DNA of 64,000 bases, from the IMG/VR virus record IMGVR_UViG_3300029105_000372. The stretch is one strand, 5' to 3'. This document shows, piece by piece, positions 13,984 to 34,948 of this stretch. Made by a program: the position numbers and the translations under genes. Under the pieces are notes generated by a model. It was not told where the DNA came from. It was given only the letters and a program-made list of their open reading frames with translations, and made no database searches. The stretch comes from a virus. How positions within the stretch are numbered: the first letter of the stretch is position 1; the number at the start of each line of letters is the position of its first letter.

Positions 13984-14026
13984 CAGGCGAGTGCTTTTCG
14001 GGAGCGACCCTAGCCGATGGAGTTAA

Positions 14027-17767: not shown

Positions 17768-17977
17768 TTAGTTTTTCTTTGCTGCCTTTTTGGCAGTTGT
17801 TTTCTTGGTAGCAGTTTTCTTGGTAGCAGTTTTCTTTGCTGTGGACTTCTTTGCTGCCGCTTTCTTATTGGCAGTTTTCTTGGCAGTATCTTTCTTTGAA
17901 ACGGATTTCTTTGAAGCTGCTTTCTTCTTATCGTCCATCTTTTTCTTGTCTGCTGCTGTCTTTTTTGCAGTTGCCAT
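17768..17977 (-). CDS. small Lys/Ala-rich basic protein (69 aa; histone-H1-like)
   Basis: MATAKKTAADKKKMDDKKKAASKKSVSKKDTAKKTANKKAAAKKSTAKKTATKKTATKKTTAKKAAKKN. DNA shows 9-12-nt periodic repeats. Confidence 0.45.
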   Translation of the reverse strand: MATAKKTAADKKKMDDKKKAASKKSVSKKDTAKKTANKKAAAKKSTAKKTATKKTATKKTTAKKAAKKN

Positions 17978-18671: not shown

Positions 18672-20288
18672 CTATTCTTCTACCATTGCAGTCTTACTTG
18701 GCTGCTTAGATTCCTCTGTCTTATCTTTTTCCGTGTTGTTCTCCCCACCGTTCCCCTCTTCATCCTTGTATGCGTTAGGGTTCGGTTGCTGTGTCTTTTC
18801 CTCCTTGGAGGCAAGTTTCTTCTGTATGCCATCAATAATAGGCTTACTATCAACCCATGCCTGTTGTGGATCTGTGAACAGTCCAACAGTGTTAAACGAT
18901 GTAAGACCGTCTACTCCGGCATTAAGCAATGCCACAAGGGAATTGGTCTTAGACACCAAATCATAGGTTTTTGTACGGCAGAAACGGATTTCAACATCTG
19001 CCGTCTCTATATCTTTCAGACCGTCATACGGTCTCTGATCTGTCTTAATGATTTCGATTGCCAAATCAATGAGCTGCATTTCCGGCTCAGTGAATAACTG
19101 TTCAACCGTCTTAGCGGAAATCTCCAAACACTGCCATCCATTGGATAACTGCATCGCACCGGTGGTTGAACCGCCACTTGCCTCCTGCCATGATGGTGTA
19201 GAGGTGATCTGCTCCAACTGAGAATTGAGATGATCCACAAGTTTCTGAACCTCACTCTCATTCAATGTCTGATTGAGGTAAGTGATCTTTGCTTCCTTGC
19301 CGTCCCCGGTACTCTTTGTCATAATGACTCCATCGCCGTCTACGAGGTTTTTCTTGCCCTCTTCGTTTACCTGGCAGTTGTGCATCCAGAGTAAACTCTG
19401 AACGTGTTGCAGAATATCATTGATACGGTCAGAATCCACAAGATTCATTGCATCCATCAGTGGGATAACCTTTTCAAAAATACCCATGCGGTCATTCAGA
19501 TAAAATTCAACGACCGGTATTCTTCGGAGTGGGTTTGGTGCGATATTCTCTTTCAGATGATAGTCTGTCGTGTTCAACTCATGCTCAATGGTATAGCAGA
19601 AATTCTTTGAGTATGCCGTAAGAGTAATTGTTCCATCATCATGTACGGAATAGGTGCATCCTAGCACCGGTTCTCTATATGCGTCATTTGAGTACACCAC
19701 AAAGGTTGTAAGTGGACTTGGAACCAATAGTTCAAATGGAGAATATCTGCTCTTATTTCTGTTCGGCAGCATCATCTGGTAGCCGACACCACAGATAAAT
19801 AAGTTTCTTCCAAGGGCAATATCTTTTGCCGCTTTGCTCTGCTCCTGCATCATTTTATTGAGCATGGCGATCTTCAAATCGTCAATATTCTCTCCATCGT
19901 CCTCATCCTTTTTTCTCAAAAATCCGAATAAGGCTTTCTTCTGTTTCTTTGTCGGTTCTATCTTTGCTCTCTGTACGAAAGTGATCGGGTTGGAAAAACA
20001 ATATCCCAGATGCACGTCCACAATCTTTGAAGCATTGTTTTCTACGACTGTGGCATTGAGATCCGGTCTGATTTTCTTTTCACGGTTAAGAATTGGCTGA
20101 TTGCCTTTCTCGTACTCAAAAAGAAAAACTTCCTGTGCCACATTCTCCTGGTGTTCCATAAACGCCTTAGATACAACCGATATGATATTGTCTTTCGTAA
20201 TTTTCCTCTCATCAGTCATTAACATTCGTCTACCGAGAGTTGGACGGTTGCTTGCGTACATGAAGTTTCCCCTTTCTGAATAAAACAA
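18672..20288 (-). CDS. portal protein (538 aa)
   Basis: Size, position upstream of the Mu-F-like gene, and acidic C-terminal tail. Confidence 0.7.
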   Translation of the reverse strand: MFYSERGNFMYASNRPTLGRRMLMTDERKITKDNIISVVSKAFMEHQENVAQEVFLFEYEKGNQPILNREKKIRPDLNATVVENNASKIVDVHLGYCFSNPITFVQRAKIEPTKKQKKALFGFLRKKDEDDGENIDDLKIAMLNKMMQEQSKAAKDIALGRNLFICGVGYQMMLPNRNKSRYSPFELLVPSPLTTFVVYSNDAYREPVLGCTYSVHDDGTITLTAYSKNFCYTIEHELNTTDYHLKENIAPNPLRRIPVVEFYLNDRMGIFEKVIPLMDAMNLVDSDRINDILQHVQSLLWMHNCQVNEEGKKNLVDGDGVIMTKSTGDGKEAKITYLNQTLNESEVQKLVDHLNSQLEQITSTPSWQEASGGSTTGAMQLSNGWQCLEISAKTVEQLFTEPEMQLIDLAIEIIKTDQRPYDGLKDIETADVEIRFCRTKTYDLVSKTNSLVALLNAGVDGLTSFNTVGLFTDPQQAWVDSKPIIDGIQKKLASKEEKTQQPNPNAYKDEEGNGGENNTEKDKTEESKQPSKTAMVEE

Positions 20289-21563: not shown

Positions 21564-21910
21564 TTCTTTTTCATCCCTCTGATAGTATGCTTTTTACGGT
21601 TTCCTACAAATCTGCCGCCGCCCTTTTGGTTGCCATAGATAAATGCCGCCATATTCCCACCAGACAGTTTCTGCGTGACCGGTTTGAAATCTGTCTGTGT
21701 GTTTTCCTCCATAGGGCGTAATGATGGCGTTTCGGGTTTATACTGAGGTCTCCATACCATGGCAATTTTATTGTCTTTGGGATCCACAAATCCAATACCA
21801 TTTTCAAAGATAGTAAGATTAAGTCCATGCCGGATGCAGGCCTCTTCGATCTCTTTCTGTACCTCAACTGCTTTTTTCTGTGCTTCTGTCATACCATTTT
21901 CTCCTTTCAT
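21560..21910 (-). CDS. hypothetical protein with basic C-terminus (116 aa)
   Basis: ORF immediately downstream of the kinase gene. Confidence 0.3.
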   Translation of the reverse strand: MKGENGMTEAQKKAVEVQKEIEEACIRHGLNLTIFENGIGFVDPKDNKIAMVWRPQYKPETPSLRPMEENTQTDFKPVTQKLSGGNMAAFIYGNQKGGGRFVGNRKKHTIRGMKKK

Positions 21911-23637
21911 CGTACAGTTCTCCCAAGTCTATAAATATTTTCATCATTGATGATCGTAAATGCTGTGGAATCTTTGATTAAACAGCTATCTGGCGATACG
22001 GCTTCGCACTCAAAATCCTTAAATGCCTGTTTCTGGTACGAATATATTCTGATATTCCCATCAATCGGTATTGAAATATTGGAGTTATAAAAACATACAT
22101 TGCCAAGCCCACATTGATATTTAATGCGATCCTCGCTATACGCTACTCCATGTTCATTGCACACAAAGGTAAAGAACTGTCCGGCTCCGTTCTCCAACAC
22201 TATAAGCCATCCTCCGGTTATTTTATCTCTGTGTATTCCATAATTATTCACGGTATCGGTATATGGTATCTCAATATTTTTCCCATCCAGACTCACAATG
22301 AGGTTTTCTGCAAATCTACTTACAACGCACGAATGTCCCTCAGATACCGCAAAGTAACTCTCATACCCACATTTTGTAATCGTCCGTATTCCGTTGCCTG
22401 ATTTCGTGATCTGAATTGAGGTTAATGTATTGGCGGGACTTATGAAGTATACTGAATCTCCTGCTGCATAAATCGGGCTCTTGTATTTCTTATCAAACAC
22501 ATATTCTCTATCCGTGGTAAACCAGAACGCTCTATCATCCGCTTTTATTGCAATATTCTCTGTTCCAACCTCTGCAAAATGATATTTAATTCCGCTTTCG
22601 TATGCGAATTTATTCCCATTCTTAACTTCCACTACTTCTCCAGCATTATTGATATAACACTGCTCATTTAGAACAATTTTTACATCGTTTCCTTTGAGCA
22701 TCGTGATAAGTGTAAGTCCTCCTGTTACCCCTTGTGATACCGGCTTAGTAAGAACATTTGCGTTATTATCACATAGCGGACAACGAGCATATTTGCCATA
22801 ATAAAACTCCTGGTGTGCATCGCAGAATTTAAGGTGCTTTGCCATGTGTTTTAATTCATCCCCCATAGATCGGCTCTTATTCTCAAAAATCTTTTTCAGA
22901 GAATCAACCAGATAAGGAGATAAGTTTTTCCACGGTTTAATCGTTCTTGGTATTTTTACTTTTGGATTGTCTATTACGCATATTCCTCGTTTCATACGTT
23001 CTACAATATCCATATCTGGTGTCACAGTCCCGCCATGCGGATGAATCCTTGTAAGGGTTTTCCAAATCAAAATTGCCTCTGCGTATGTGTCTGTTTCCTC
23101 TGAAAAATCATTTCCTTTCATCAATGGATCTTTGAATAAGTCCATGCAAACTTCGCATTTTTCATCTTCCACGCTCCAACTATCACAATCTATAAAGTAC
23201 ACATTTCCAGTTTTGTCAAAGAGGATGTTCTGATCGTTCAGATCCCCAATATACACTCCGGCGGAATGTATATCTCTCACGGTGTCCTGTATCTTTACGA
23301 GTATTTCCAAAATATCTTTCGTGGTTATCCCATTCGCTTTCAGATATTTTTTACTTGTGAGAACTCTTACTTCCTCTCCTACGGCTTTTGGCATAATGTA
23401 ACCAATAAACTTATTGTTATTGTCATACACTGCCGTAATCGGTTTAATAGCCTCCTTTGGCAGCGGTTTGTCAATGAGCATGGCAACTTTCTTTTCCTTG
23501 GCTGCAATATCAACACAGGGTTTGTAAATTTTCAGAATATCGTTGCCAAACTCATAGATATATCCCTCGCCTCCCTCCGTTATGGGGGTAAGCTGTCTTA
23601 TCTTTTCTTTTCCTATCCTCGTTAGTGCCATTTTCAT
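21907..23637 (-). CDS. eukaryotic-like Ser/Thr protein kinase with C-terminal Zn-ribbon / beta-rich extension (576 aa)
   Basis: Gly-loop GGEGYIYEF, lysine in ILKIYKP, catalytic-loop-like IGDLNDQNILFD and DFG-like IDCDSW. C-terminal CPLC..C motifs. Confidence 0.65.
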   Translation of the reverse strand: MKMALTRIGKEKIRQLTPITEGGEGYIYEFGNDILKIYKPCVDIAAKEKKVAMLIDKPLPKEAIKPITAVYDNNNKFIGYIMPKAVGEEVRVLTSKKYLKANGITTKDILEILVKIQDTVRDIHSAGVYIGDLNDQNILFDKTGNVYFIDCDSWSVEDEKCEVCMDLFKDPLMKGNDFSEETDTYAEAILIWKTLTRIHPHGGTVTPDMDIVERMKRGICVIDNPKVKIPRTIKPWKNLSPYLVDSLKKIFENKSRSMGDELKHMAKHLKFCDAHQEFYYGKYARCPLCDNNANVLTKPVSQGVTGGLTLITMLKGNDVKIVLNEQCYINNAGEVVEVKNGNKFAYESGIKYHFAEVGTENIAIKADDRAFWFTTDREYVFDKKYKSPIYAAGDSVYFISPANTLTSIQITKSGNGIRTITKCGYESYFAVSEGHSCVVSRFAENLIVSLDGKNIEIPYTDTVNNYGIHRDKITGGWLIVLENGAGQFFTFVCNEHGVAYSEDRIKYQCGLGNVCFYNSNISIPIDGNIRIYSYQKQAFKDFECEAVSPDSCLIKDSTAFTIINDENIYRLGRTVR

Positions 23638-23646
23638 AATGCCCTC

Positions 23647-24333
23647 CTACAATACGATTGTTGTATCATCCTGGAATACTCTCTGATGTTTGTTTATAAA
23701 CCTCTTTACCCTTACTTCCTTACCGCTCTGCAGGGCTTCCGTAAATTCTTTCTTAAATTGTGCATCTTTCATGGCGAATCGTATTCCGTCAGACGCTACA
23801 CCAATATTCCTGTATTCGTCTTTTGGAAAAGCCTTTGTGGAAAAAATGACACCATCTTTGTACTGTTTGAGCATATCCTTATCCACATAATTATAGGCAA
23901 AGTATTTCGGGTATTCTCCGTCAGATAGTTCTTCAAACTCAATCGTTCCGTCCAGACGTTCTTTCACGATAAAACCATCTCCGCAGTAATCTACCATGAA
24001 ATGTGTCTCATTTTCAGTAACCATAAGGATCGTAAAACAAAGGAAATCTCTGATTGAGCCGGAAGTCTGCCCGAATAGACCAAGTATCTCTCCAAAAGCG
24101 GCTGCGGCAGTATATACACTACATTCATGTATAATTCTGCTGTCATTTTTCAAAAGATGGCAAAACGCTTTTGCTCCAACTTCCGAATGTTTCCCCTCCG
24201 AACAGCCATCGCAAACAACTTTCATCCCATCAAATTCAATTCCGTAGTCCTGGCAATTCGTACCGTAGTCGATATGTTGCTGACCGATTTTATTTATAAC
24301 CATTGTATTTCCTCCCACAAAAAAGAACGGCAA
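23647..24333 (-). CDS. PP2C-like Ser/Thr phosphatase (228 aa)
   Basis: N-terminal NCQDYGIE...VVCDGCSEGKHSEVGAKAF resembles the PP2C metal-binding motifs (xED..DGMGGH). Sits between the vWA and kinase genes. Confidence 0.5.
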   Translation of the reverse strand: MPFFFVGGNTMVINKIGQQHIDYGTNCQDYGIEFDGMKVVCDGCSEGKHSEVGAKAFCHLLKNDSRIIHECSVYTAAAAFGEILGLFGQTSGSIRDFLCFTILMVTENETHFMVDYCGDGFIVKERLDGTIEFEELSDGEYPKYFAYNYVDKDMLKQYKDGVIFSTKAFPKDEYRNIGVASDGIRFAMKDAQFKKEFTEALQSGKEVRVKRFINKHQRVFQDDTTIVL

Positions 24334-24366
24334 CCCCTTTTAGGATCGCCGTTCTACTCTCATTTT

Positions 24367-25041
24367 TTATACGTCAAAAAAATCATCCTGTTTCGATACG
24401 GCACTCTTGGAGTTTTCAATCACTGATTTTGATAAGCAGTTGAAAGCTCTTCTGAGTTCTGATGCAGAACTGCTTACATCGAGGATATTCTTGAATCCAA
24501 GGTCTTTCGCCTCCTGTGTTGCCTGTCCTCCGAAACTGATAAACGCAGTAACGATTTCTTCCACGTTCAGATACTCTACCGCTTTCTTTGCCTTTGCAAA
24601 CCCTCCCGGCTGAGAAGAGTTATCCATCCCATCTCCGAAAATTGCAAACACGGCCTTTACTCTCATTCCCTCATTTTTGAGGAAGTCTCTGTATTCTTTC
24701 AACTTCTCAGTTCCATCAATGATCGTATCGTACATAGCTGTGCATCCATCGGTGCTATACGAAGTGTCAAACTCTGTAATGCGCTTATAGCCTCCTACGG
24801 TTGCACTGTCGGAGAAGTCTGCTCTTGCAACCAGAATCTCATCACATTCCTTGGAATTGATAAGTGCATCTTTGAAATCCGAAAGAGCTTTTACCATATC
24901 TCTTTCATACATTCCCATAGAACCAGACTTGTCGATTCCGACAAAAATTAAATTGATGTTCTCACTGTCGATTTCATCAATGGAGGTATTTGCGATCTCA
25001 ACCTCATCTAATCCGTCAATTACCTGTTCTGTTTCATTCAT
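24367..25041 (-). CDS. vWA-domain protein (TerY-like; 224 aa)
   Basis: MIDAS motif IFVGIDKSGSMG with downstream Thr and Asp positions; a Rossmann-like alternating pattern. Confidence 0.7.
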   Translation of the reverse strand: MNETEQVIDGLDEVEIANTSIDEIDSENINLIFVGIDKSGSMGMYERDMVKALSDFKDALINSKECDEILVARADFSDSATVGGYKRITEFDTSYSTDGCTAMYDTIIDGTEKLKEYRDFLKNEGMRVKAVFAIFGDGMDNSSQPGGFAKAKKAVEYLNVEEIVTAFISFGGQATQEAKDLGFKNILDVSSSASELRRAFNCLSKSVIENSKSAVSKQDDFFDV

Positions 25042-25053
25042 ACCGGCTACCTC

Positions 25054-25962
25054 CTACAAAATATCATCTGTGCTTTTCACGATGTTTACATGGTACGTTT
25101 TCTTAAAATCATCAAAGGTCTGCTCAGTAACATCCTCAAACCCAGGAATGGAGGACATACAATCTTCCAGGATATAGATTTTCTGAGTGATCTCTGGGCG
25201 ATTAGCGTAATGTTCGAGAATCTGTTTAATGCTTTCCAATACGCAATGGCTCTTTGCCTCTCCTGCAATAATGATCTTGTCGTAATTTTCCAGTTTGTTC
25301 AGGAAGTCGATATTGATGTAGTTCTTTGTATCATACTCAGGTTTGATAATTCCGTACATTTCGCTGAGTGGATCCTGTCCTTTTACAAGACGCTGCGTAA
25401 CGGCTTTCTTTGCAACAGAGTGAAAATAAATCATGTTGGCAAACTGATTTTCAAATGCCGCACCAGATGTACCCTGTAAACAGTGGTAAGACCATACGCA
25501 TAAGGTTTTCTTTCCGTCTTTTTCCAGATGTTCTACATAGTCACGGCTCTGGCGAGGGTAGATAACAGCTCTGTACTTTCCAGAATCAAGGTCTGCCAGC
25601 GTAATCGGTGTGTAAGGAGCCGGATTGTTGCCATTTTCATCAATCCACCAGCACGGATGGAAAATCTGATGTGGTGTGTGGGTATCAATAGATACCGCAA
25701 TGTTTGTAATTTTATCCATATTGTTATAGATAAACTGTGTCATTCTCTCCACATCGCCGTGTGCTCCGGGAACTCCGAGTGCTCCATTATCCATGAAGTC
25801 CTGCTGCACATCAATTCCGAGAAACAATACTCTCTCTTTGTTTTGTGCTGCCGGTGTAAGCTGCTCATCGTTTGCCTTTCTCAAAATCTCATTTAGAGAA
25901 ATCGGATTTGTCTGTGAACCAATACTTGCGATGTTCACAATTTCATTGTAGGGTGTTTTCAT
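25054..25962 (-). CDS. isochorismatase-family cysteine hydrolase (nicotinamidase-like; 302 aa)
   Basis: LFLGIDVQQDF near the N-terminus and IIAGEAKSHCVLES catalytic-Cys region, both typical of the isochorismatase/PncA fold. Confidence 0.55.
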   Translation of the reverse strand: MKTPYNEIVNIASIGSQTNPISLNEILRKANDEQLTPAAQNKERVLFLGIDVQQDFMDNGALGVPGAHGDVERMTQFIYNNMDKITNIAVSIDTHTPHQIFHPCWWIDENGNNPAPYTPITLADLDSGKYRAVIYPRQSRDYVEHLEKDGKKTLCVWSYHCLQGTSGAAFENQFANMIYFHSVAKKAVTQRLVKGQDPLSEMYGIIKPEYDTKNYINIDFLNKLENYDKIIIAGEAKSHCVLESIKQILEHYANRPEITQKIYILEDCMSSIPGFEDVTEQTFDDFKKTYHVNIVKSTDDIL

Positions 25963-26024
25963 TGGTGGTTATCTCCTTTTATATTTTATTTGACCGGAGC
26001 TATTTGCCCCGGTCAGTATTTACT

Positions 26025-27476
26025 CTATTCGACTGTGATGCAATCATATCTCTCAGAATTGATTGTATTCTCCATAGCCTCAACCGGATTGTAGCCAAGG
26101 TTCTGCAGGATCTGTTTGAATACCGTCACGGACTGTCCGCTTGCAAGCTGCACACCCTTACGGTTGTGATCTGCATGGAATACATCGTGTCTGCTATTCA
26201 CATTCCAAAAGATGATGTTCGGGATTACATAACCGGCCTTGCAGAACTTATTTGCCATCTTGTCATAGAACGACCACTCACGGTTTCCGCAATAGTCAAT
26301 TTCCATATCAGAGATAACAACGATTGCTTTCGGCATTTCCTCCTGCGGAGTATTATGCTTTTTCGCAATTTCAAGAACCCTCTCAAAAGCAGCTTTAAGG
26401 TCTGTGTTGCCATCCCAATTTGCTCTGCTCACGTTGCAAATCTTCTGTTCAAGGGTTTCTCCCCTCAGAATAACCGTCTCCGGTCTGTCAGAGAACGTCA
26501 TAAACAGATTGTGGTATGCACCCACATTTCTCTCTGCAAAATAGATTGCAAGACCGATTGATGTTGCCATAGGTCTGCCTCTCATAGAACCGGACACATC
26601 CGCCATAACTAAAGCGTTTGTTCCTTTCTCCACATAATCTGGCAATGCTTTCCACTGTGCTTCGAGTACCTTACTGCTCTCTCTGCCATAAAGGATCTTC
26701 TCAACAATATCGTAAGGGAACAGTGTTGAAGCATTGATTTTTACCTCTCCCTTTTCTGCCTTGTTGATAAACTCTCCAAACCTCTCAGCATCATGTTTCA
26801 TAAATGCCTTGCGGTAAATCATCATCGCACGGCTCGGAACTTCCGGGTATTTGATTTCATCCCATCTTCCGGCTGACATAAGACTTTCAACGACACCGAT
26901 CTGTTTTCTCATGCTACGGACGATTCTCTTGAAATTGTAGACCGGATAGCCTAATTTCTGCGCCGTAAGGATTCCGAGTTTTCTTGTGGCAGAGCTGCTT
27001 GCATCTGCGGTCTTAATCCATTTTGCAAGTAAAGAAATTGCATTTCCGGCATTGAGGTTCTGTAAATCTTCCTCAAACTGTTTCTTCATTGCCGCCCACA
27101 TATCGTCCTCCAATGGAGTTCCGATAAGCTCATACAGATCATCATATCTTCCGAATACACCAACCAGATCAAGGTTTGGTCTGAGTGCTTCTGGGTGTTT
27201 CTCTGCCATATAACGAATAATGGTTCTGAAAGTCTTTCTCTCTCCAAGACCGCCACGAATGTCTCTTGCATAGAACGCAATCTTTGTAGCAAAGAGTTTA
27301 TCCTGTGCGTATGCCTCAGCAAACAGAGTGGTAATTCTGTTCTCATCAGCCTCTCTCAGCGATCCGATTGTACCAAACAGATCCAGTCGGGCATCGCCAG
27401 AGGTATTCAGTGCCACTGCACCGTTTTCAGTCCGGGTAAATCTACCCTCTTCTCTCATTGCATCTGCAAAACTCAT
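26025..27476 (-). CDS. large vWA-domain protein (483 aa; phage DUF2828-like, possibly Ro60-related vWA)
   Basis: MIDAS motif LVMADVSGSMRGRP followed by a long alpha/beta region. This architecture is common in phage genomes. Family assignment is from memory only. Confidence 0.5.
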   Translation of the reverse strand: MSFADAMREEGRFTRTENGAVALNTSGDARLDLFGTIGSLREADENRITTLFAEAYAQDKLFATKIAFYARDIRGGLGERKTFRTIIRYMAEKHPEALRPNLDLVGVFGRYDDLYELIGTPLEDDMWAAMKKQFEEDLQNLNAGNAISLLAKWIKTADASSSATRKLGILTAQKLGYPVYNFKRIVRSMRKQIGVVESLMSAGRWDEIKYPEVPSRAMMIYRKAFMKHDAERFGEFINKAEKGEVKINASTLFPYDIVEKILYGRESSKVLEAQWKALPDYVEKGTNALVMADVSGSMRGRPMATSIGLAIYFAERNVGAYHNLFMTFSDRPETVILRGETLEQKICNVSRANWDGNTDLKAAFERVLEIAKKHNTPQEEMPKAIVVISDMEIDYCGNREWSFYDKMANKFCKAGYVIPNIIFWNVNSRHDVFHADHNRKGVQLASGQSVTVFKQILQNLGYNPVEAMENTINSERYDCITVE

Positions 27477-27678
27477 GTTTTCCTACCTTTCCAGGACTCT
27501 CATTTACGGAATTGAACCGTTTCACATTGTTTTTTAGACATTTGCTTTAACCATTGTGATTGCTGTAGGAGTCCCTATAAAATTGTTTACCGTTTCATTG
27601 TCAGGACACTATTGGGGTTTATGATTAACAGTCATATCCAAAAGGGTTGCTGTAAGTGTCCCATGTAAAGTTTTATGC

Positions 27679-27969
27679 CTATCTGGCTAACTTTTTAAGT
27701 TCATACCGCCTGTTATGTATCGCTCCGACAGAACGACCAATCTTCTCAGACAGTTCAGAATCGGTAATCTCATGTTTGATTACCAGTGCATCTTCCTCCG
27801 TAGTCCACGGATGAGACGGATATAGAAATGACGTTTTGCTGTAATATCGCCTATGCTGCCTCTGACACGCTTTATGATACTTTTCCATATCCCTATAATC
27901 TTCTTTTCGGTTCATAGGCAACCTCTTTCTTTTTACATGACGCTGTTTCAAACGGGAAAATATTGTCAA
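27679..27969 (-). CDS. small basic HTH-like protein (96 aa)
   Basis: WTTEEDALV...IGRSVGAIHNRRYEL resembles a sigma-r4/Myb-like HTH. Confidence 0.3.
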   Translation of the reverse strand: MTIFSRLKQRHVKRKRLPMNRKEDYRDMEKYHKACQRQHRRYYSKTSFLYPSHPWTTEEDALVIKHEITDSELSEKIGRSVGAIHNRRYELKKLAR

Positions 27970-28012
27970 TGGAATTTTCTGTTTTGAAAGATTGCTGTAA
28001 GCGTCACTTAAT

Positions 28013-28108
28013 TGCCCCGACAGGACTTGAACCCGTATGCTCGATTGCTGTAAGGAACACTCCTGTCAACCATGTTCCATCCGGTTTACCATAACCGGCA
28101 ATCGGGGC
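28013..28108 (-). ncRNA. tRNA-like gene, atypical: canonical acceptor and T arm but 13-nt anticodon loop and 17-nt variable region
   Basis: Acceptor GCCCCGA/TCGGGGC, D arm CCGG-TTATGGTAAA-CCGG, 6-bp stem GGAACA/TGTTCC enclosing TGGTTGACAGGAG, T arm ACGGG-TTCAAGT-CCTGT. No 7-nt anticodon loop could be formed. Confidence 0.5.
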
Positions 28109-28110
28109 AG

Positions 28111-28237
28111 AGACGATGAGAGGAATCGAACCTCTATCCGCAGCTTGGGATTGTTATTGAAAGGAGTTTGCTGATTATGCCACTAACATGACATTCTTCT
28201 TAACAGAGCTGCTGTGCTCCCTTTGCACCACATCGCC
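28111..28237 (-). ncRNA. tRNA-like gene with ~56-nt insertion in the anticodon loop (127 nt)
   Basis: Acceptor GGCGATG/CATCGTC (one G.U pair), D arm GTGC-AAAGGGA-GCAC, anticodon stem GCAGC...GCTGC enclosing 63 nt, variable GGAT, T arm AGAGG-TTCGATT-CCTCT. Confidence 0.55.
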
Positions 28238-28242
28238 ATATA

Positions 28243-28360
28243 GAGTGAGGGACGGACTCGAACCGCCGACAACGTCCTTAGCATGGAATGAAAGATTGCT
28301 GTTCAGATCACAAACATGATCCATTTTTCTTTCGTGCTCTACCAACTGAGCTACCTCACT
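28243..28360 (-). ncRNA. tRNA-like gene with ~45-nt insertion between D and T arms (118 nt)
   Basis: Acceptor AGTGAGG/CCTCACT (7/7), U8-A9, D arm GCTC-AGTTGGTA-GAGC, then ~70 nt containing the stem GAAAGA/TCTTTC around a 34-nt loop, then T arm GGCGG-TTCGAGT-CCGTC. Confidence 0.55.
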
Positions 28361-28425
28361 CATGTAATTGGCGCATCTTCTTGATTTGTAAGGACATTTG
28401 CGCCATCGCCTTGATTGGAGAGGGT

Positions 28426-28532
28426 AGGATTTGAACCTACACTACATTTGCCTCTTTGGGTGTATTTGCAACATTATTAAAATGATACGTTTTCACAATA
28501 CAAATTGCGTCTGCCAGTTCCGCTACCTCTCC
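28426..28532 (-). ncRNA. tRNA-like gene (Leu-type D arm) with expanded anticodon region (107 nt)
   Basis: Acceptor GGAGAGG/CCTCTCC (7/7), D arm GCG-GAACTGGCAGA-CGC, anticodon stem ATTTG...CAAAT enclosing 32-50 nt, T arm GTAGG-TTCAAAT-CCTAC. Confidence 0.55.
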
Positions 28533-28565
28533 ATATTCAGTTTTCAATACGGAAATCCGTATGAG

Positions 28566-28684
28566 TTGCGTGGGAGGGAATCGAACCCTCATCTCTTCAT
28601 TTCCAGTGAAAAAAGAATAGTTGCTGTCCGTGCCACATGGAACATGACACCGCTTTAATGTTCTATCCATTGAACTACCACGCA
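28566..28684 (-). ncRNA. tRNA-like gene with ~43-nt insertion between D and T arms (119 nt)
   Basis: Acceptor TGCGTGG/CCACGCA (7/7), U8-A9, D arm GTTC-AATGGATA-GAAC, 65 nt with no canonical anticodon arm, T arm GAGGG-TTCGATT-CCCTC. Confidence 0.55.
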
Positions 28685-30117: not shown

Positions 30118-30526
30118 ATGCAGTCCGGCGGCAGCTTGGATGGTTGCCACTACCGAACCGATGCAACGTGTAAGACAGTTGCCAACAAAGGTATTTCATT
30201 TTTTAATGTGGTTCTCGGACCTTGCACCCCTCCACATGGTTCTCATAATCCACCGACTACATACTCAAAGAACCTTTGACGAGTCCAACTCTTTATCGCC
30301 TTACCTCGGATGTACGTTGTTATCGCAGTTCTCCGCCTCTACTACATTCCTCTGCGTTTTGATAGATTTTTTTGTGTAGTTACGGCTCTATCTGCCTTTC
30401 TACTCATGGTTTTCATCTTGAAAATACTCATGCCAAAAGTCACTTAGTGATCACCGGAACCTCGCCACCGCCAATTTTCTTTCCTGTTAAAGCCGGACTA
30501 AGAAAATCAGTTAAGAAATCCGCTCG

Positions 30527-30599
30527 TCCTACGGTGGGGAGTCGAACCCCACTTTCCCCGGCATGGTGTCCGTGGCATTTCCAGTTATGCTATCGTAGG
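30527..30599 (-). ncRNA. tRNA-like gene of canonical length (73 nt) with unpairable anticodon stem (pseudo-tRNA?)
   Basis: Acceptor CCTACGA/CCGTAGG, D arm GCAT-AACTGGAA-ATGC, T arm TGGGG-TTCGACT-CCCCA. The 17-nt anticodon region ACGGACACCATGCCGGG does not form a 5-bp stem. Confidence 0.4.
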
Positions 30600-31221: not shown

Positions 31222-31533
31222 TTAGCGATTCACTTCATCTTTCAGTACTTTACCGGCTTTGAACTTAGGTGCTTTGCAAGCCGGAATGGAAATCTCTTTT
31301 CCGTTCTGAGGGTTCTTACCAACTCTGGCAGCACGCTCAGTCACTTCAAATGTTCCAAAACCGACCAACTGCACTTTTCCGCCTTTTCCAAGTTCTCCGC
31401 CTACAATCTCAACAAATGCGTTGAGTGCTTTTTCAGCATCACTTTTGGAAAGTCCGGCATCGTCAGCCATTGCCTGTACTAATTCAGCTTTATTCATTGC
31501 TCTGTACCTCCGTTGTTGGTGAAAGATCTCCAA
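31222..31533 (-). CDS. hup: HU-family DNA-binding protein (103 aa)
   Basis: MNKAELVQAMA...GFGTFEVTERAARVGKNPQNGKEISIPA, a near-consensus HU/IHF signature. Confidence 0.85.
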   Translation of the reverse strand: MEIFHQQRRYRAMNKAELVQAMADDAGLSKSDAEKALNAFVEIVGGELGKGGKVQLVGFGTFEVTERAARVGKNPQNGKEISIPACKAPKFKAGKVLKDEVNR

Positions 31534-32467
31534 TGTCTACGATTGTGTCTGTGCCATCAGACAGTGACACTTTCGGCAGTGCGCCGTCCCACTTCTCCAA
31601 ATACATCTGCTGCAAGATCTTATTCGTCAGTGAATCATTCAACAGTTTGTTGGCATCTGCCTCTCCCTGCGCTTTAATAACGGCAGCGTCAGCTTCGCCC
31701 TGCGCCTGAGTGGTTTTTACCTTAGCATCCGCCTCGGCAGCTTCGATCTTTTTCTGATTTTCAATCTGCTGCTGTTCATAAGCCAACTGTGCGGTCTGTT
31801 TTTCAGCGATTGCCTGATTGTAACTGTCCTCAAAATCAGTATTGGCAATTACTACCTTGTTGATGATTACTACGTCCTCTCCATATTTCTCATCGAGGGC
31901 TTTCTGAATGTTCTGCATGGAAAGAGGCTCTACAATTCCTCTGTTCGTTGCATCTGTTGAGGTCAAGGACTTACTGCTTGTCTTGATTGCGGAAGCCACA
32001 AGTGTCTGCGTTACAAGGTTTTCCTTATAGTTGCTGACGTTGGCATAAATCCATGCGGACATTTCCGGGTTGATCTGGTATGTAACTGTGATGTCATCAT
32101 AATACAGTGCTGTTCTCTCTGATGTTTCAGACCAAATCTGTCCGTCAAACACAATGTCCTGCTGCTTGTTGTTGACTTTCTCAATCTTCTGGACGAATGG
32201 GATCTTCCAATTTGCGCCGTTCTGTATTGTTGTCTCATCAATCTGTCCGAATGTGCTTTTAACTCCGGTATATCCGGTCGGTATAATCACGAGTGAATTA
32301 CCTACTCCGAATACAATCAGACCAACAAGCATCACAACAACAAAACCTTTTGGGAATTTTGCTTTCTCATTTCCCTTTTCCTCGATTTCATACTGTTTTA
32401 ACGAACATCCTGCAATGATGCCGCCGAGGAAAAGTATGATTCCGATGATCGTCAAAATGATACTCAT
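31490..32467 (-). CDS. SPFH / band-7 (stomatin-prohibitin-like) membrane protein (325 aa)
   Basis: N-terminal TM helix, then a band-7 core (IPTGYTGVKSTFGQI...NWKIPFVQKIEKVNNKQQDIVF) and a C-terminal coiled coil (AEKQTAQLAYEQQQIENQKKIEAAEADAK). Confidence 0.7.
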   Translation of the reverse strand: MSIILTIIGIILFLGGIIAGCSLKQYEIEEKGNEKAKFPKGFVVVMLVGLIVFGVGNSLVIIPTGYTGVKSTFGQIDETTIQNGANWKIPFVQKIEKVNNKQQDIVFDGQIWSETSERTALYYDDITVTYQINPEMSAWIYANVSNYKENLVTQTLVASAIKTSSKSLTSTDATNRGIVEPLSMQNIQKALDEKYGEDVVIINKVVIANTDFEDSYNQAIAEKQTAQLAYEQQQIENQKKIEAAEADAKVKTTQAQGEADAAVIKAQGEADANKLLNDSLTNKILQQMYLEKWDGALPKVSLSDGTDTIVDIGDLSPTTEVQSNE

Positions 32468-33295: not shown

Positions 33296-34948
33296 CTATA
33301 TTCCTAAGTCACTTCTCTTTACTACCTGTCCCTCTCCTCCAAGAAGAGCATCTACAAACTGGGCGAACATTGCCAGAGTGTCCGGCGCATCATCATGTTT
33401 ATTTTTTCCGAGCTGTGTATAACTGCAAAGGAATGACATCATCACACCGTAATCACTCTTAGGCTCATATTCTGTAATATCCTTGAATATGACGTGTTCC
33501 TTAACCCATGAAGAATTGACGATGATCTTGGTCTCTTTGTTCTGAGTAGTGTATTTCTTCGTGATATGGCATCTGCCGCCTTTTGCTTTGACAAGTCTCT
33601 CAACTTCATTTGCGGTTCTGCTACCCTCTTTGTTGCTCTCGAACTGTGCCTGCTGTACATGATGCTTAACAAGCATATCTGAGTTGAGTTCGTCCAAGGT
33701 CCCAGGGTCGATGTTCTTGAATACCAGATCTTCCAGATAGTATCTGTCTCCGTACTGGTAGAAAACTCCGAGGAAGTTGTAGTCTGTACCGGTGTCCTTG
33801 GTATCGCAGATTGCCAATATAGAATCCGGTTCTCTGTCCGGCAGTCCTCCGATATATCTCTGTAATTCTGTTGGATGATACAGAATACCCTCTCTCTCAA
33901 TCGGATCGCTCTTATACAGGCAGCGATATGAAACATCATCCATCGACATTTCCATATCGTGGAAGTATTTCTCATCAAATCCAACATCGTAATCGTAATC
34001 AAAGTTGCTTTTTCCGGTCTGAGGATCAATGTCTGGAACAGCAATGAACTCTGCCCTCGGATTGCCCTCATACATTCTTTCAAGCCGGCCAATAACATCA
34101 TGCACGCTCCATCGGGTTGCAATGTGGATCTCTTTTGCTTTCTTCTTTTTACGAGATTTAAGGTCTGTGGTGTACTCTCCGTACAACTTATCCAGACGAT
34201 CAATAGACAGAGCCTCTTCGATACCGGAAACCAAATCATCCACATACAGAAATCCCTCACAACGGGTAACACCGGTAAGGGAACCTCTGATTGGTCTGCA
34301 GGTCAGTGTCTTAAACGGTTGCCATCTTCCAAGGTTTATTGTCTCTTCTTTTGCATTGTTTCCCTCAAATACAATGTCCGGGAACACATCGCTCCAACAA
34401 TATTCATTACTGGTAATTATGTTGAGAACGGCATCATAGAACATTCTCGTCATAAATCCAGAATGTGAGGACATAAGGTTTGGTGTGTTTGGGTAATGCC
34501 CCATTACAAACGATATAAAAAACTCTCCCAGTGTGGTCTTGCCGGTGCCAGGAGGCATTGATATTGATAGAATATCCAACTCATCATCAATAAGCCTCTG
34601 CATCTTCTGTACAAGCCAATAAATCTTATTTCTTCGTGGCTGATAGTATCTGTCCTCGGGATCTCTGTTCTTTTCCACATAAAGCAGATAAGAGTCAAAA
34701 TCCTTATGTTCCTGTGCCAAGAACAAAAGAGCCTTATTGTACAAATCGTAATATTTAATATCTCCTGTTGCACATAGTCTCAGTGCAAGGAATCTGACCT
34801 TATTCGCTAATTTCCGTGAAAGTTCTTTATCTTCCCGGATAACCTCATTTGCCATTCCGAGTAAGGACAGAAGATTGTCATAGTCACTCAGATCGCTTTT
34901 CAGAAGCCTTACGATAATCTCTTTATTCGATAGTTCGTGTTGAGCCAT
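33296..34948 (-). CDS. terL: terminase large subunit (550 aa)
   Basis: Walker-A-like SMPPGTGKTT, acidic catalytic segments, and the C-terminal nuclease-domain motif GKNKHDDAPDTLAMF. Confidence 0.8.
   Translation of the reverse strand: MAQHELSNKEIIVRLLKSDLSDYDNLLSLLGMANEVIREDKELSRKLANKVRFLALRLCATGDIKYYDLYNKALLFLAQEHKDFDSYLLYVEKNRDPEDRYYQPRRNKIYWLVQKMQRLIDDELDILSISMPPGTGKTTLGEFFISFVMGHYPNTPNLMSSHSGFMTRMFYDAVLNIITSNEYCWSDVFPDIVFEGNNAKEETINLGRWQPFKTLTCRPIRGSLTGVTRCEGFLYVDDLVSGIEEALSIDRLDKLYGEYTTDLKSRKKKKAKEIHIATRWSVHDVIGRLERMYEGNPRAEFIAVPDIDPQTGKSNFDYDYDVGFDEKYFHDMEMSMDDVSYRCLYKSDPIEREGILYHPTELQRYIGGLPDREPDSILAICDTKDTGTDYNFLGVFYQYGDRYYLEDLVFKNIDPGTLDELNSDMLVKHHVQQAQFESNKEGSRTANEVERLVKAKGGRCHITKKYTTQNKETKIIVNSSWVKEHVIFKDITEYEPKSDYGVMMSFLCSYTQLGKNKHDDAPDTLAMFAQFVDALLGGEGQVVKRSDLGI

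What the first reader, a model, noticed from the sequence alone, without database searches (positions are those of the whole stretch)
21907..27476. vWA / PP2C phosphatase / Ser-Thr kinase triad (TerY-P-like) plus a second large vWA protein and an isochorismatase-family hydrolase, inserted between portal and terminase
Gene order on the minus strand is: large vWA (26025-27476, MADVSGSM), isochorismatase-like hydrolase (25054-25962), TerY-like vWA (24367-25041, DKSGSM), PP2C-like phosphatase (23647-24333), then an eukaryotic-like kinase with a Zn-ribbon C-terminal domain (21907-23637). The vWA-PP2C-kinase triad matches the computationally predicted 'TerY-P' phospho-signalling modules, whose function is not established experimentally to my knowledge. 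Its presence in a phage accessory island suggests host takeover, superinfection exclusion or anti-defence signalling. The isochorismatase or nicotinamidase-like enzyme could touch NAD or nicotinamide metabolism, which is relevant to NAD-depleting defences.
Basis: partly seen in the sequence, partly recalled or inferred. Interest (0 to 1): 0.7.

Follow-up and report, generated by a model that had tools for sequence, protein, structure and literature searches.

The report
Phage nicotinamidase with kinase–phosphatase–vWA switch
A prophage of a human-gut Lachnospiraceae bacterium carries a four-gene cassette, a nicotinamide-deamidating enzyme followed by a vWA / phosphatase / kinase signalling trio, and because its hosts keep the same cassette under their NAD regulator, the phage probably uses it to keep NAD up during infection.

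Summary
All five ORFs exist as described. They are two separate things.

**The cassette (25962→21907, minus strand).** Four genes form one conserved mobile cassette:
- a long-form nicotinamidase with its catalytic Asp/Lys/Cys and metal ligands invariant
- a small vWA protein with a complete MIDAS motif
- a PP2C phosphatase
- a Hanks-type Ser/Thr kinase followed by a Zn knuckle and a 270-aa all-β domain

**Distribution.** The same gene order occurs in about 35 species-level Lachnospiraceae genomes and in several distinct phage lineages.

**Chromosomal copies** sit behind 21-bp palindromic operators. The same operators precede the neighbouring NAD-salvage operon that encodes NrtR. In five genomes nrtR lies directly next to the cassette.

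**Phage copies** lack the operator. They are interleaved with or adjacent to NadE and PncB, Gad2, a Tad2-like gene and RNA-repair genes.

**The fifth gene** (DUF2828 + vWA, 26025-27476) is a very common gut-phage gene. It goes with the tRNA/RNA-repair part of the island, not with the cassette.

**Best reading (about 0.5):** a nicotinamide-salvage module gated by a TerY-P-like phospho-switch, borrowed by phages to sustain or rebuild NAD+.

**Main rival:** a TerY-P-type defence system. No PADLOC model matches, and the kinase lacks the OB fold of the validated TerY-P version.

I found no paper describing this linkage. It is a new variant of known kinds.

The parts
25054..25962 (-). Gene 1 of the cassette: long-form nicotinamidase (PncA-like, isochorismatase superfamily), 302 aa. 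It has a ~45-aa N-terminal extension and a ~50-aa insert.
   Evidence: ORF. The profile hits only nicotinamidases in the PDB. D51, K194 and C240 plus D93, H95 and H160 are invariant down to 45% identity. It is the most conserved cassette protein, 78.6% mean identity to chromosomal copies.
24367..25041 (-). Gene 2: stand-alone cytoplasmic vWA protein, 224 aa. It has an acidic N-terminal tail, a complete MIDAS motif and a Ser-rich C-terminal helix ending in FF.
   Evidence: MIDAS residues D37, S39, S41, T101 and D137 are invariant. The family has 446 cluster representatives. 57 of 109 hit PF00092. The profile hits vWA/I-domains in the PDB.
24324..24355 (-). Terminator-like or attenuator-like hairpin (14 bp, then TTTTTG) between the vWA and PP2C genes.
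   Evidence: Not seen at this position in chromosomal copies, where the two genes abut or overlap.
23647..24303 (-). Gene 3: PP2C-type Ser/Thr phosphatase.
   Evidence: PP2C_2 2.5e-10, above cut-off. D29, D42-G43, D119-G120, D182-G183 and D222-D223 are invariant in 35 sequences. Homologue N-termini.
22843..23637 (-). Gene 4, residues 1-265: Hanks-type (eukaryote-like) Ser/Thr protein kinase domain.
22738..22842 (-). Gene 4, residues 266-300: Zn-knuckle/Zn-ribbon-like linker, C272-x2-[D 84% / H 14% / C 2%]275 ... C286-P-x-C289.
   Evidence: Column counts in 50 homologues. Two β-hairpins in the model. No Pfam TerY-C hit.
21910..22719 (-). Gene 4, residues 307-576: all-β C-terminal domain of 28 strands. 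A 7 x 4 arrangement, i.e. a β-propeller, is inferred. It is the most variable part of the cassette and the presumed sensor or docking domain.
   Evidence: Secondary structure and pLDDT above 90. 45% mean identity against 60% for the kinase domain. One full-length remote phage homologue in BFVD.
26025..27476 (-). DUF2828 + DUF7788/vWA protein, 483 aa. It is a neighbour, not part of the cassette, and belongs with the tRNA/RNA-repair part of the island.
   Evidence: Pfam. PHROG 850 'RNA-binding protein' 2.9e-134. At least 7979 homologues. Present without the cassette in L096-L101.
28111..28684 (-). Four tRNA-like genes, each with a 50-62 nt insert in the anticodon arm, upstream of DUF2828. They are context for DUF2828, not part of the cassette.
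   Evidence: Rfam tRNA 42-47 bits. One such element lies upstream of DUF2828 in L096, L099 and L054. Shared insert motif.
33296..34948 (-). Large terminase: upstream boundary of the 13-kb accessory island.
   Evidence: tblastn to annotated terminases, 46-47% identity. Weak Pfam Terminase-T7 RNaseH-like hit.
18672..20288 (-). Portal protein: downstream boundary of the island.
   Evidence: SPP1_portal 8.4e-53. PHROG 64.

Best explanation
Genes 25962→21907 are a phage-borne copy of a four-gene Lachnospiraceae cassette: nicotinamidase, vWA, PP2C, Ser/Thr kinase.

**Shown**
- The gene order is fixed across about 35 bacterial species and several phage lineages.
- The enzyme has every catalytic and metal-binding residue of nicotinamidases.
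- The vWA, PP2C and kinase have intact active or binding sites.
- Chromosomal copies carry paired 21-bp palindromic operators that also precede the adjacent NAD-salvage operon encoding NrtR.
- nrtR lies directly next to the cassette in five genomes.
- Phage copies have lost the operators and sit among NAD-synthesis, anti-defence and RNA-repair genes.

**Inferred for the host**
- NAD cleavage releases ADP-ribose, the known anti-repressor of NrtR.
- ADP-ribose de-represses the cassette.
- The enzyme converts nicotinamide to nicotinic acid, feeding PncB, NadD and NadE (the Preiss-Handler route) and removing nicotinamide.
- The kinase, sensing through its variable β-domain, and the PP2C set a phosphorylation state. 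The MIDAS of the vWA protein reads that state, switching or scaffolding the enzyme or a partner.

**Inferred for the phage**
- The cassette is expressed free of NrtR control.
- It keeps NAD+ available during infection, including against NAD+-depleting defences.
- The rest of the pathway comes from the host, because the window has no PncB or NadE.
For: **Cassette conservation**
- tblastn maps show iso302, vWA, PP2C and kinase in that order in 34 bacterial or metagenomic loci, in 28 of 30 diverse viral loci checked (the other two are cut short at a contig end), and in this phage's own lineage (49 viral contigs).
- No viral iso302 homologue with enough flank lacks the triad.

**Enzyme**
- Invariant residues. 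Only nicotinamidases are hit in the PDB.
- Stand-alone relatives sit near pncB.

**NAD regulon**
- The NAD operon (PncA, PRTase, NAMPT/NAPRTase, NadE, NrtR) lies 1.5 kb from the cassette.
- An NrtR homologue is directly adjacent in L073, L076, L077, L082 and L084. It matches the NrtR/AraR structures 3gz5 and 5bs6.
- The palindrome TTATTATC-N5-GATAATAA occurs 27 times against 2.45 in shuffles. 16 sites lie 37-82 nt upstream of iso302 in 14 loci, 8 lie before the NAD operon, and none is in a phage copy.
- The same double operator lies upstream of nrtR in L077.
- NrtR sites are 21-bp palindromes, ADP-ribose releases NrtR, and clostridial NrtR controls pncA-pncB (PMC2330246).

**Phage contexts**
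- NadE and PncB lie inside the cassette in L049. NadE-like genes are nearby in L164 and L169.
- Gad2 lies between PP2C and the kinase in L184. A Tad2-like gene is in the same accessory region as DUF2828, in a phage that lacks the cassette (L097).
- RNA ligase, Thg1 and DUF2828 are adjacent in L181 and L182.
Against: - No activity was measured.
- Curated Pfam and NCBIfam cut-offs for isochorismatase/PncA are not reached.
- The enzyme has extra segments that could change its substrate.
- L050-type hosts already have a canonical 171-aa PncA in the same locus, so simple redundancy is odd.
- The window has no PncB, NadD or NadE, so the phage alone cannot rebuild NAD.
- The operator was assigned to NrtR by association only, and its core is AT-N7-AT rather than the GT-N7-AC reported for most NrtR groups.
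- Many operator-bearing loci are orthologous, so they are not independent.
- The role of the triad is pure inference. The canonical αC Glu position is only 62% Glu.
- No phage-encoded nicotinamidase route is among the described NARP1-3 pathways.
Confidence: 0.5

Rival explanations
1. The cassette is a TerY-P-type anti-phage defence or superinfection-exclusion system carried by a temperate phage. The kinase β-domain senses an incoming phage. Phosphorylation through the vWA/PP2C switch triggers an effector response. The nicotinamidase is the effector or an amplifier, for example by removing nicotinamide and so pulling NAD-consuming reactions forward or blocking nicotinamide salvage.
For: - TerY-P-like triads protect against phage (Gao 2020, as cited in PMC7699616 and PMC11090510).
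- The gradient from a conserved enzyme to a fast-evolving kinase, with the most variable part being the C-terminal domain, looks like an effector/sensor pair.
- The window is about 96% identical to a prophage in a 355-kb Diplocloster hominis contig, and prophages often carry defence genes.
- The kinase gives weak hits to defence kinases mad6, MkoA, PD-T4-6 and Stk2.
Against: - No PADLOC model matches the vWA or the PP2C, including 109 vWA relatives.
- The TerY-P kinase model STK_OB is hit only at 0.007-0.05 and only by relatives.
- The C-terminus is not an OB fold.
- Chromosomal copies are in stable housekeeping NAD loci with NAD-regulon operators, not defence islands.
- In phages the neighbours are anti-defence genes (Gad2, Tad2-like) and NAD-synthesis genes.
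Confidence: 0.2
2. The enzyme does not serve bulk NAD salvage. It acts on another pyridine-amide substrate (NMN, nicotinamide riboside, NAD itself or a signalling nucleotide), or its purpose is to lower free nicotinamide. Nicotinamide is a product inhibitor of sirtuins and ADP-ribosyltransferases. The cassette would then tune protein deacylation or ADP-ribosylation, with the triad as its regulator.
For: - The N-terminal extension and the 50-aa insert are conserved throughout the family, including stand-alone members.
- It coexists with a canonical short PncA in the same locus.
- Curated nicotinamidase cut-offs are not reached.
- The enzyme is extremely conserved, 78-100% across more than 120 clusters, which suggests a constrained, specialised role.
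Against: - All nicotinamidase catalytic and metal residues are invariant.
- The only PDB relatives are bona fide nicotinamidases.
- The recurring neighbours pncB, nadE and nrtR are the downstream salvage steps.
Confidence: 0.15
3. The triad is a general host-takeover phospho-signalling device, like other phage kinases that phosphorylate host proteins. The nicotinamidase is an unrelated auxiliary metabolic gene that travels with it because of an ancestral operon.
For: - Phage-encoded Ser/Thr kinases exist (PHROG 2361 hit; BFVD kinases).
- No residue-level evidence links the enzyme to the triad. There are no fusions and no Ser/Thr specific to the triad-linked enzymes.
Against: - The four genes stay together and in order in every phage and chromosomal copy examined, even when other genes are inserted between them.
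- The triad is under the same NAD operator in the host.
Confidence: 0.1

Closest known systems
TerY-P triad (TerY-like vWA + PP2C + Ser/Thr kinase with C-terminal Zn ribbon; Anantharaman, Iyer & Aravind 2012, as summarised in PMC11090510)
   Same: Three adjacent genes with the same domain set. The MIDAS is intact, the PP2C and kinase sites are intact, and a Cys-rich metal knuckle lies directly after the kinase domain.
   Different: - No ter (tellurite-resistance), CoCoNuT or DNA-processing neighbours were seen in any locus.
- A nicotinamidase is an obligatory fourth gene.
- The kinase carries a further 270-aa all-β domain.
- There is no Pfam TerY-C hit.
- The host copies are regulated as part of an NAD regulon.
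TerY-P anti-phage defence system (STK fused to an OB fold; Gao et al. 2020; PADLOC)
   Same: vWA / PP2C / kinase gene trio on mobile DNA.
   Different: - No PADLOC model matches the vWA or the PP2C.
- STK_OB is only a marginal hit for relatives.
- The C-terminal domain is not an OB fold.
- The genomic company in phages is anti-defence and NAD synthesis rather than defence.
PncA nicotinamidase and the NrtR regulon of NAD salvage (Rodionov et al. 2008, PMC2330246)
   Same: - Catalytic Asp-Lys-Cys triad and metal site.
- Linkage to pncB, nadE and nrtR.
- 21-bp palindromic operators.
- In Clostridia, NrtR controls pncA-pncB.
   Different: - The protein is 302 aa rather than about 180-215 aa, with extra conserved segments.
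- It falls below curated HMM cut-offs.
- It is co-transcribed with a kinase/phosphatase/vWA trio, which is not a described regulon member.
- The operator core is AT-N7-AT.
Phage NAD+ reconstitution pathways: NARP1 (Adps+Namat), NARP2 (Nampt+Nmnat), NARP3 (PnuC+NadR-like) (bioRxiv 10.1101/2024.02.11.579819; PMC13464706)
   Same: Phage-carried NAD-salvage genes in accessory islands, which make sense as a counter to NAD-depleting immunity.
   Different: - The entry point differs: nicotinamide to nicotinate (Preiss-Handler).
- The pathway is incomplete in this phage, although L049 adds PncB and NadE.
- It is coupled to a signalling triad.
- It is untested.
Ro60 (TROVE + vWA) with tRNA-like Y RNAs (PMC4201824). 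This applies to the DUF2828 neighbour only.
   Same: A helical N-terminal domain plus a MIDAS vWA, a conserved adjacent tRNA-like non-coding RNA, and RtcB / RNA-ligase / Band_7 neighbours in relatives.
   Different: - No TROVE Pfam hit, and the profile finds no Ro60 in the PDB.
- The YrlA model scores only 22 bits against a cut-off of 69.
- The RNA topology differs: the insert is in the anticodon arm of an otherwise complete tRNA.

Membership tests
TerY-P triad (architecture, Anantharaman 2012) | Stand-alone vWA protein with an intact MIDAS motif (DxSxS...T...D) | tested here: met
   D37, S39, S41, T101 and D137 are invariant. Relatives hit PF00092. The profile hits vWA domains in the PDB. The protein itself hits no Pfam VWA model.
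TerY-P triad (architecture, Anantharaman 2012) | PP2C phosphatase with metal-binding aspartates | tested here: met
   PP2C_2 40.7 bits against a cut-off of 24. D29, D42, D119, D182 and D222/D223 are invariant.
TerY-P triad (architecture, Anantharaman 2012) | Ser/Thr kinase with catalytic Lys and Asp | tested here: met
   K36, D132, N137 and D150/D152 are invariant in 50 sequences. The fold matches PknB and BRAF. Pfam Pkinase is 1.4 bits below its cut-off.
TerY-P triad (architecture, Anantharaman 2012) | Zn ribbon fused C-terminally to the kinase | tested here: inconclusive
   C272, C286 and C289 are invariant. The fourth ligand position is Asp 84%, His 14%, Cys 2%. There is no Pfam TerY-C hit, and a large extra domain follows.
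TerY-P triad (architecture, Anantharaman 2012) | The three genes are adjacent in one operon | tested here: met
   Same order in all loci.
TerY-P defence system (Gao 2020 / PADLOC) | Proteins match the system's HMMs | tested here: not met
   No PADLOC hit for the vWA, the PP2C or 109 vWA relatives. STK_OB is hit only at 0.007-0.05, and only by two kinase relatives.
TerY-P defence system (Gao 2020 / PADLOC) | Kinase fused to a C-terminal OB fold | tested here: not met
   The C-terminus is a 270-aa domain of 28 β-strands.
TerY-P defence system (Gao 2020 / PADLOC) | Protects cells against phage | not testable with these tools
   Needs plaque assays.
Nicotinamidase (PncA, isochorismatase superfamily) | Catalytic Asp-Lys-Cys triad | tested here: met
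   D51, K194 and C240 are invariant down to 45% identity. They align to the nicotinamidase motifs.
Nicotinamidase (PncA, isochorismatase superfamily) | Metal-binding Asp/His cluster (DxH ... H) | tested here: met
   D93, H95, H102 and H160 are invariant. 'W-x-x-HC-x-x-GT-x-GA' aligns to the nicotinamidase signature.
Nicotinamidase (PncA, isochorismatase superfamily) | Score above curated family cut-offs | tested here: not met
   Pfam 17.1 against 27. NCBIfam 34.7 against 174. However, all 5 PDB hits of the family profile are nicotinamidases.
Nicotinamidase (PncA, isochorismatase superfamily) | Deamidates nicotinamide | not testable with these tools
   Needs an enzyme assay.
NrtR regulon (chromosomal copies of the cassette) | 21-bp palindromic operator in the promoter, shared with NAD genes, and nrtR nearby | tested here: met
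   Absent from the window and from all phage copies. Binding by NrtR was not tested.
NARP1/NARP2/NARP3 phage NAD+ reconstitution | Presence of the defining enzyme pairs (PRPS-like Adps + Nampt-like Namat; Nampt + Nmnat; PnuC + NadR-like) | tested here: not met
   tblastn of the window with host PRTase, NAMPT/NAPRTase, NadE and PncB queries found nothing. Nmnat, PnuC and NadR were not searched for directly.
Ro60/TROVE (DUF2828 neighbour) | TROVE domain | tested here: not met
   Pfam gives DUF2828 and DUF7788 only. The profile finds no Ro60 in the PDB.

The most novel reading that the evidence does not exclude
A fourth, regulated kind of phage NAD+ countermeasure. Phages of gut Lachnospiraceae would hijack a host NrtR-regulon cassette in which a nicotinamidase is gated by a eukaryote-like kinase / PP2C / vWA switch. 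They would use it to convert defence-released nicotinamide into nicotinate for Preiss-Handler resynthesis of NAD+. This would also give TerY-P-like triads, whose mechanism is unknown, a first concrete metabolic partner.
Probability: 0.3. Interest if true: 0.8.

Novelty: new variant of a known kind. Interest (0 to 1): 0.66.

Why it matters
NAD+ depletion is a common outcome of bacterial immunity, for example in Thoeris, DSR and Sir2-HerA. Three phage NAD+ rebuilding routes have been described, and none starts with nicotinamidase.

This cassette is abundant in the human-gut virome: thousands of member sequences in the clusters, and dozens of viral contigs. It moves between Lachnospiraceae chromosomes and their phages.

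It also links two fields:
- The TerY-P-type vWA/PP2C/kinase trio is widespread and protective in one form, but mechanistically opaque.
- The NrtR/ADP-ribose-controlled NAD regulon is well understood.

If the link is functional, it offers a tractable system with an assayable enzyme for asking what such trios sense and switch. It could also explain how gut phages cope with NAD-targeting defences.

Tried and rejected
1. AF2 of the nicotinamidase with a shallow 12-sequence alignment gave pLDDT 58. I did not use it for fold search, and it cost one structure job.
2. The small vWA protein gave nothing against Pfam, PADLOC, NCBIfam or the PDB, either alone or with a narrow 14-sequence profile. Only the wide 109-sequence profile and a Pfam scan of relatives established the vWA fold.
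4. I looked for Rosetta-stone fusions of the vWA protein with the enzyme. The two long relatives (P0245, P0253) carry unrelated N-termini.
5. I looked for Ser/Thr residues conserved only in triad-linked enzymes as candidate phospho-sites. There are none.
6. A DUF2828 profile against the PDB did not find Ro60, and the YrlA covariance model scored only 22 bits.
7. The terminase could not be confirmed against PDB sequences. It was confirmed by tblastn to annotated phages.
8. Cluster names of remote vWA relatives gave only 'VWA domain-containing protein', never TerY.
9. My first operator regex was too strict, so I replaced it with a mismatch scan.
10. I did not fetch a reference TerY for hhalign. 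A vWA-to-vWA match would not separate TerY membership from general vWA membership.

Full report
**1. Observation**

Domain scans support most of the calls.
- 26025-27476 is DUF2828 + DUF7788 with a vWA core. It matches PHROG 850, annotated 'RNA-binding protein', at 2.9e-134.
- 23647-24333 is PP2C_2, above the Pfam cut-off.
- 21907-23637 scores 30.3 bits on Pkinase, 1.4 bits under the cut-off.
- 25054-25962 gives only sub-threshold isochorismatase/nicotinamidase hits.
- 24367-25041 gives nothing at all on its own.

The island lies between the large terminase (33296-34948) and the SPP1-type portal (18672-20288). It sits in a 13-kb accessory stretch that also holds 10 canonical tRNA genes (7 more tRNA or tRNA-like genes lie just outside or are listed in sections 6 and 11), an HU protein and a Band_7 protein. 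The window is about 96% identical to a prophage region on a 355-kb contig of Diplocloster hominis CSJ-3. It is therefore a temperate phage of a gut Lachnospiraceae.

**2. The four proteins one by one**

*Enzyme.*
- An alignment reaching down to 45% identity keeps D51, K194 and C240 invariant. These are the nicotinamidase catalytic triad.
- D93, H95, H102 and H160 (the metal site) are also invariant.
- A profile of that alignment hits five PDB sequences, all of them nicotinamidases (2.4e-8 to 9e-4), and no other isochorismatase-fold enzyme.
- The protein is about 100 residues longer than PncA. The N-terminal extension and the insert are conserved.

*vWA.*
- The MIDAS residues D37, S39, S41, T101 and D137 are invariant.
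- An exhaustive search found 446 cluster representatives.
- 57 of 109 relatives hit PF00092.
- The wide profile hits integrin I-domains and ITIH vWA domains.

*PP2C.*
- All metal-binding aspartates are invariant in 35 sequences.
- The real start is probably the ATG at 24303. The annotated TTG lies inside a 14-bp hairpin followed by a T-run, and homologues begin at the equivalent Met.

*Kinase.*
- The AF2 model built on 50 homologues has pLDDT 90.
- The G-loop, K36, D132, N137, D150/D152 and D183 are invariant.
- A metal knuckle follows: C272-x2-[D/H/C]...C286-P-x-C289.
- Residues 307-576 form 28 β-strands. I read this as a seven-bladed propeller, but I could not confirm it.

**3. What the unit is**

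Mapping the window proteins onto loci fetched with the kinase and with the enzyme shows a fixed order: enzyme, vWA, PP2C, kinase.
- The order holds in this phage lineage and in 26 chromosomal loci with all four genes, from about as many Lachnospiraceae species-level genomes, that have no phage genes nearby.
- It holds in at least five further phage lineages, with enzyme identity 60-88% and kinase identity 34-61%.
- No viral homologue of the enzyme with enough flank lacks the trio.
- Conservation falls steadily along the operon. Against chromosomal copies the enzyme is 78.6% identical, the vWA 67.1%, the PP2C 51.8% and the kinase 46.7%.
- Within the kinase, the C-terminal domain is the most variable part.

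DUF2828 behaves differently.
- It has at least 7979 homologues, mostly in gut phages.
- It occurs without the cassette in L096-L101.
- It is absent from every chromosomal cassette.

The correct unit is therefore four genes. It includes the hydrolase and excludes DUF2828.

**4. The link to NAD**

Four independent lines of evidence point the same way.

*(a) Neighbouring NAD-salvage operon.* In one genus-level group (L050, L059, L062, L069, L080) the cassette lies 1.5 kb from an operon encoding PncA, a PRTase, a NAMPT/NAPRTase-family enzyme, NadE and NrtR.

*(b) nrtR adjacency.* In five other genomes an NrtR homologue is the immediate neighbour on the same strand, either just after the kinase or just before the enzyme. 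It matches the NrtR and AraR crystal structures.

*(c) Shared operators.*
- The chromosomal cassettes are preceded by a σ70-like promoter flanked by two copies of a 21-bp palindrome, TTATTATC-N5-GATAATAA.
- With up to 2 mismatches the palindrome occurs 27 times in 568 kb of loci, against 2.45 in shuffles.
- 16 sites lie 37-82 nt upstream of the enzyme start in 14 loci. 8 sites precede the NAD operon. None is in the window or in any phage copy.
- Where nrtR is the first gene (L077), the double operator precedes nrtR.
- According to Rodionov et al., NrtR sites are typically 21-bp palindromes, ADP-ribose releases NrtR from DNA, and in Clostridia NrtR controls pncA-pncB (PMC2330246).

*(d) NAD genes in phages.*
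- In the 167-kb viral contig L049 the cassette is interleaved with NAD synthase and nicotinate phosphoribosyltransferase.
- Two other phage lineages have a NadE-like gene within 4-8 kb.
- More distant stand-alone homologues of the enzyme have no trio. In L086 and L087 they sit near pncB.

**5. Company in phages**

Besides NadE and PncB, the cassette's phage neighbours are as follows.
- Gad2 (anti-Gabija) is inserted between the PP2C and the kinase in L184, and a faint Apyc1-like metallo-β-lactamase lies nearby.
- DUF2828, RNA ligase and Thg1 lie directly upstream in L181 and L182.

In phages that carry DUF2828 but lack the cassette, the same accessory region also holds a Tad2-like (anti-Thoeris) gene in L097 and RtcB and Band_7 genes.

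This is the company of counter-defence genes, not of defence islands.

**6. Mechanism**

*Shown:* the conserved four-gene cassette, intact catalytic and binding sites, operators shared with the NAD operon, nrtR adjacency, loss of the operator in phages, and NAD-synthesis and anti-defence neighbours in phages.

*Inferred for the host:*
- ADP-ribose from NAD cleavage de-represses the cassette.
- The enzyme turns nicotinamide into nicotinate for PncB, NadD and NadE.
- The kinase (input through the variable β-domain) and the PP2C set a phosphorylation state that the vWA MIDAS reads.
- This gates or scaffolds the enzyme or a partner.

Candidate acceptor sites are the invariant T19 in the acidic N-tail of the vWA protein and the Ser-rich C-terminal helix. 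S204, S206 and S211 in that helix are at least 90% conserved over 109 relatives.

*Inferred for the phage:*
- Unregulated expression keeps NAD+ available, including against NAD-depleting immunity.
- The remaining salvage steps must come from the host, because the window has none of them.

I give this reading about 0.5.

**7. Rivals**

*A TerY-P-type defence or exclusion system (0.2).*
- For: one TerY-P form is a validated defence, the cassette shows a sensor-like gradient, and it sits in a prophage.
- Against: no PADLOC model matches, the kinase has no OB fold, the host copies are under metabolic regulation, and the phage neighbours are anti-defence genes.

*A different substrate, or a nicotinamide-lowering regulatory role (0.15).*
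- For: the conserved extra segments, and a canonical PncA in the same locus.

*An unrelated host-takeover kinase trio travelling with a metabolic gene (0.1).*
- Against: the linkage is strict even when foreign genes are inserted between the four genes.

**8. Comparison with what is known**

In architecture the trio is a TerY-P triad: vWA, PP2C and a Ser/Thr kinase followed by a metal knuckle. By HMM and by its C-terminal fold it is not a member of the validated TerY-P (STK-OB) defence family.

By residues, the enzyme is a nicotinamidase that falls below curated thresholds.

The described phage NAD+ pathways are:
- NARP1: Adps + Namat
- NARP2: Nampt + Nmnat
- NARP3: PnuC + NadR-like

None of them uses a nicotinamidase. 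In the library searched, no paper combines nicotinamidase with PP2C, vWA and kinase. GenBank phages contain only one fragment of this phage and three remote hits in huge phages.

**9. Verdict**

The finding is a new variant of known kinds: a nicotinamidase-coupled, NrtR-regulated TerY-P-like cassette shared between gut Lachnospiraceae and their phages.

**10. Caveats**
- Nothing here is experimental.
- Many operator-bearing loci are orthologues, so they are not independent.
- The shuffles used as a control preserve only mononucleotide composition.
- The transcription factor was assigned by association.
- The propeller and every role proposed for the triad are inferences.

**11. Side observation**

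Upstream of DUF2828 the window has four tRNA-like genes with 50-62-nt inserts in the anticodon arm. One such element precedes DUF2828 in phages that lack the cassette. The inserts share a hairpin and an ACAGCAA motif. Together with the RtcB, RNA-ligase, Thg1 and Band_7 neighbours, this suggests either a Ro60/Y-RNA-like particle or a tRNA splicing/repair system. Sequence searches did not link DUF2828 to Ro60.

Noticed in passing
window 28111-28237, 28243-28360, 28416-28532, 28566-28684 (minus); L096 7640-7757; L099 7635-7752; L054 5398-5517: tRNA-like genes of ~118-127 nt with a 50-62 nt insert in the anticodon arm (Rfam tRNA 42-54 bits; not called by ARAGORN). At least one always lies a few hundred nt upstream of a DUF2828 gene, including in phages that lack the cassette. 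The inserts share a hairpin (GTCATGTTTGTGAC) followed by ACAGCAA. They are too short for group I introns. They could be Y-RNA-like partners of DUF2828, or spliced tRNAs that need the RtcB/RNA ligase found in relatives.
   Followed up: partly
window 27490-28090 (minus): The motif (C)TTACAGCAA recurs at least five times in the spacer between the tRNA-like genes, orf96 and DUF2828. Some copies lie next to isolated T-arm-like sequences (GGTTCAAGTCC, GGTTCAATTCC). It could be a processing signal or remnants of further tRNA-like units.
   Followed up: no
window 26025-27476; L181 2964-6687; L182 3823-7675; L096 12572-13774: DUF2828 (PHROG 850, 'RNA-binding protein') is one of the commonest gut-phage accessory genes, with at least 7979 homologues. 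In relatives it is followed by an RNA ligase and a Thg1-like enzyme, or accompanied by RtcB and Band_7. That is an RNA-repair neighbourhood. No sequence link to Ro60 was found.
   Followed up: partly
L184 13307-14011 and 18185-18925; L097 5819-6313: Known anti-defence families appear inside or beside the cassette or its accessory region in other phages: Gad2 between the PP2C and the kinase, an Apyc1-like metallo-β-lactamase (faint), and a Tad2-like protein. The PP2C-kinase junction seems to be an insertion hot spot. It holds a 120-aa ORF in L054, a 202-aa ORF in L049 and a ~1-kb insert in the L150 group.
   Followed up: partly
L050 13868-16203 (and L059, L062, L069, L080): The host NAD operon next to the cassette contains a PRTase-like gene followed by a NAMPT_N/NAPRTase-family gene. 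This pair resembles the prs-nadV pairs of NrtR regulons and the Adps+Namat pair of phage NARP1. It might be a host counterpart of that pathway.
   Followed up: no
window 30526-30599 (minus): ARAGORN calls a tRNA with a four-base anticodon (acca) and undetermined identity inside the tRNA array. It could be a frameshift-suppressor-type tRNA or a miscall. Rfam did not list it at gathering threshold.
   Followed up: no
window 13953-14020 (minus): Rfam int-alpA sRNA match above the gathering score (43.8 bits against 35.8), in the region between the head and tail genes.
   Followed up: no
window 17768-17977 (minus): A 69-aa ORF that is almost entirely Lys/Ala/Thr (MATAKKTAADKKK...), histone-H1-like, between the Mu-F-like head protein and the scaffold-like gene. 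An HU gene (31222-31533) and a Band_7 gene (31490-32467) also sit in the tRNA island.
   Followed up: no
window 24324-24355 (minus): A strong hairpin plus T-run between the vWA and PP2C genes. It could lower expression of the phosphatase and kinase relative to the enzyme and the vWA protein. It overlaps the TTG start previously assumed for the PP2C.
   Followed up: partly
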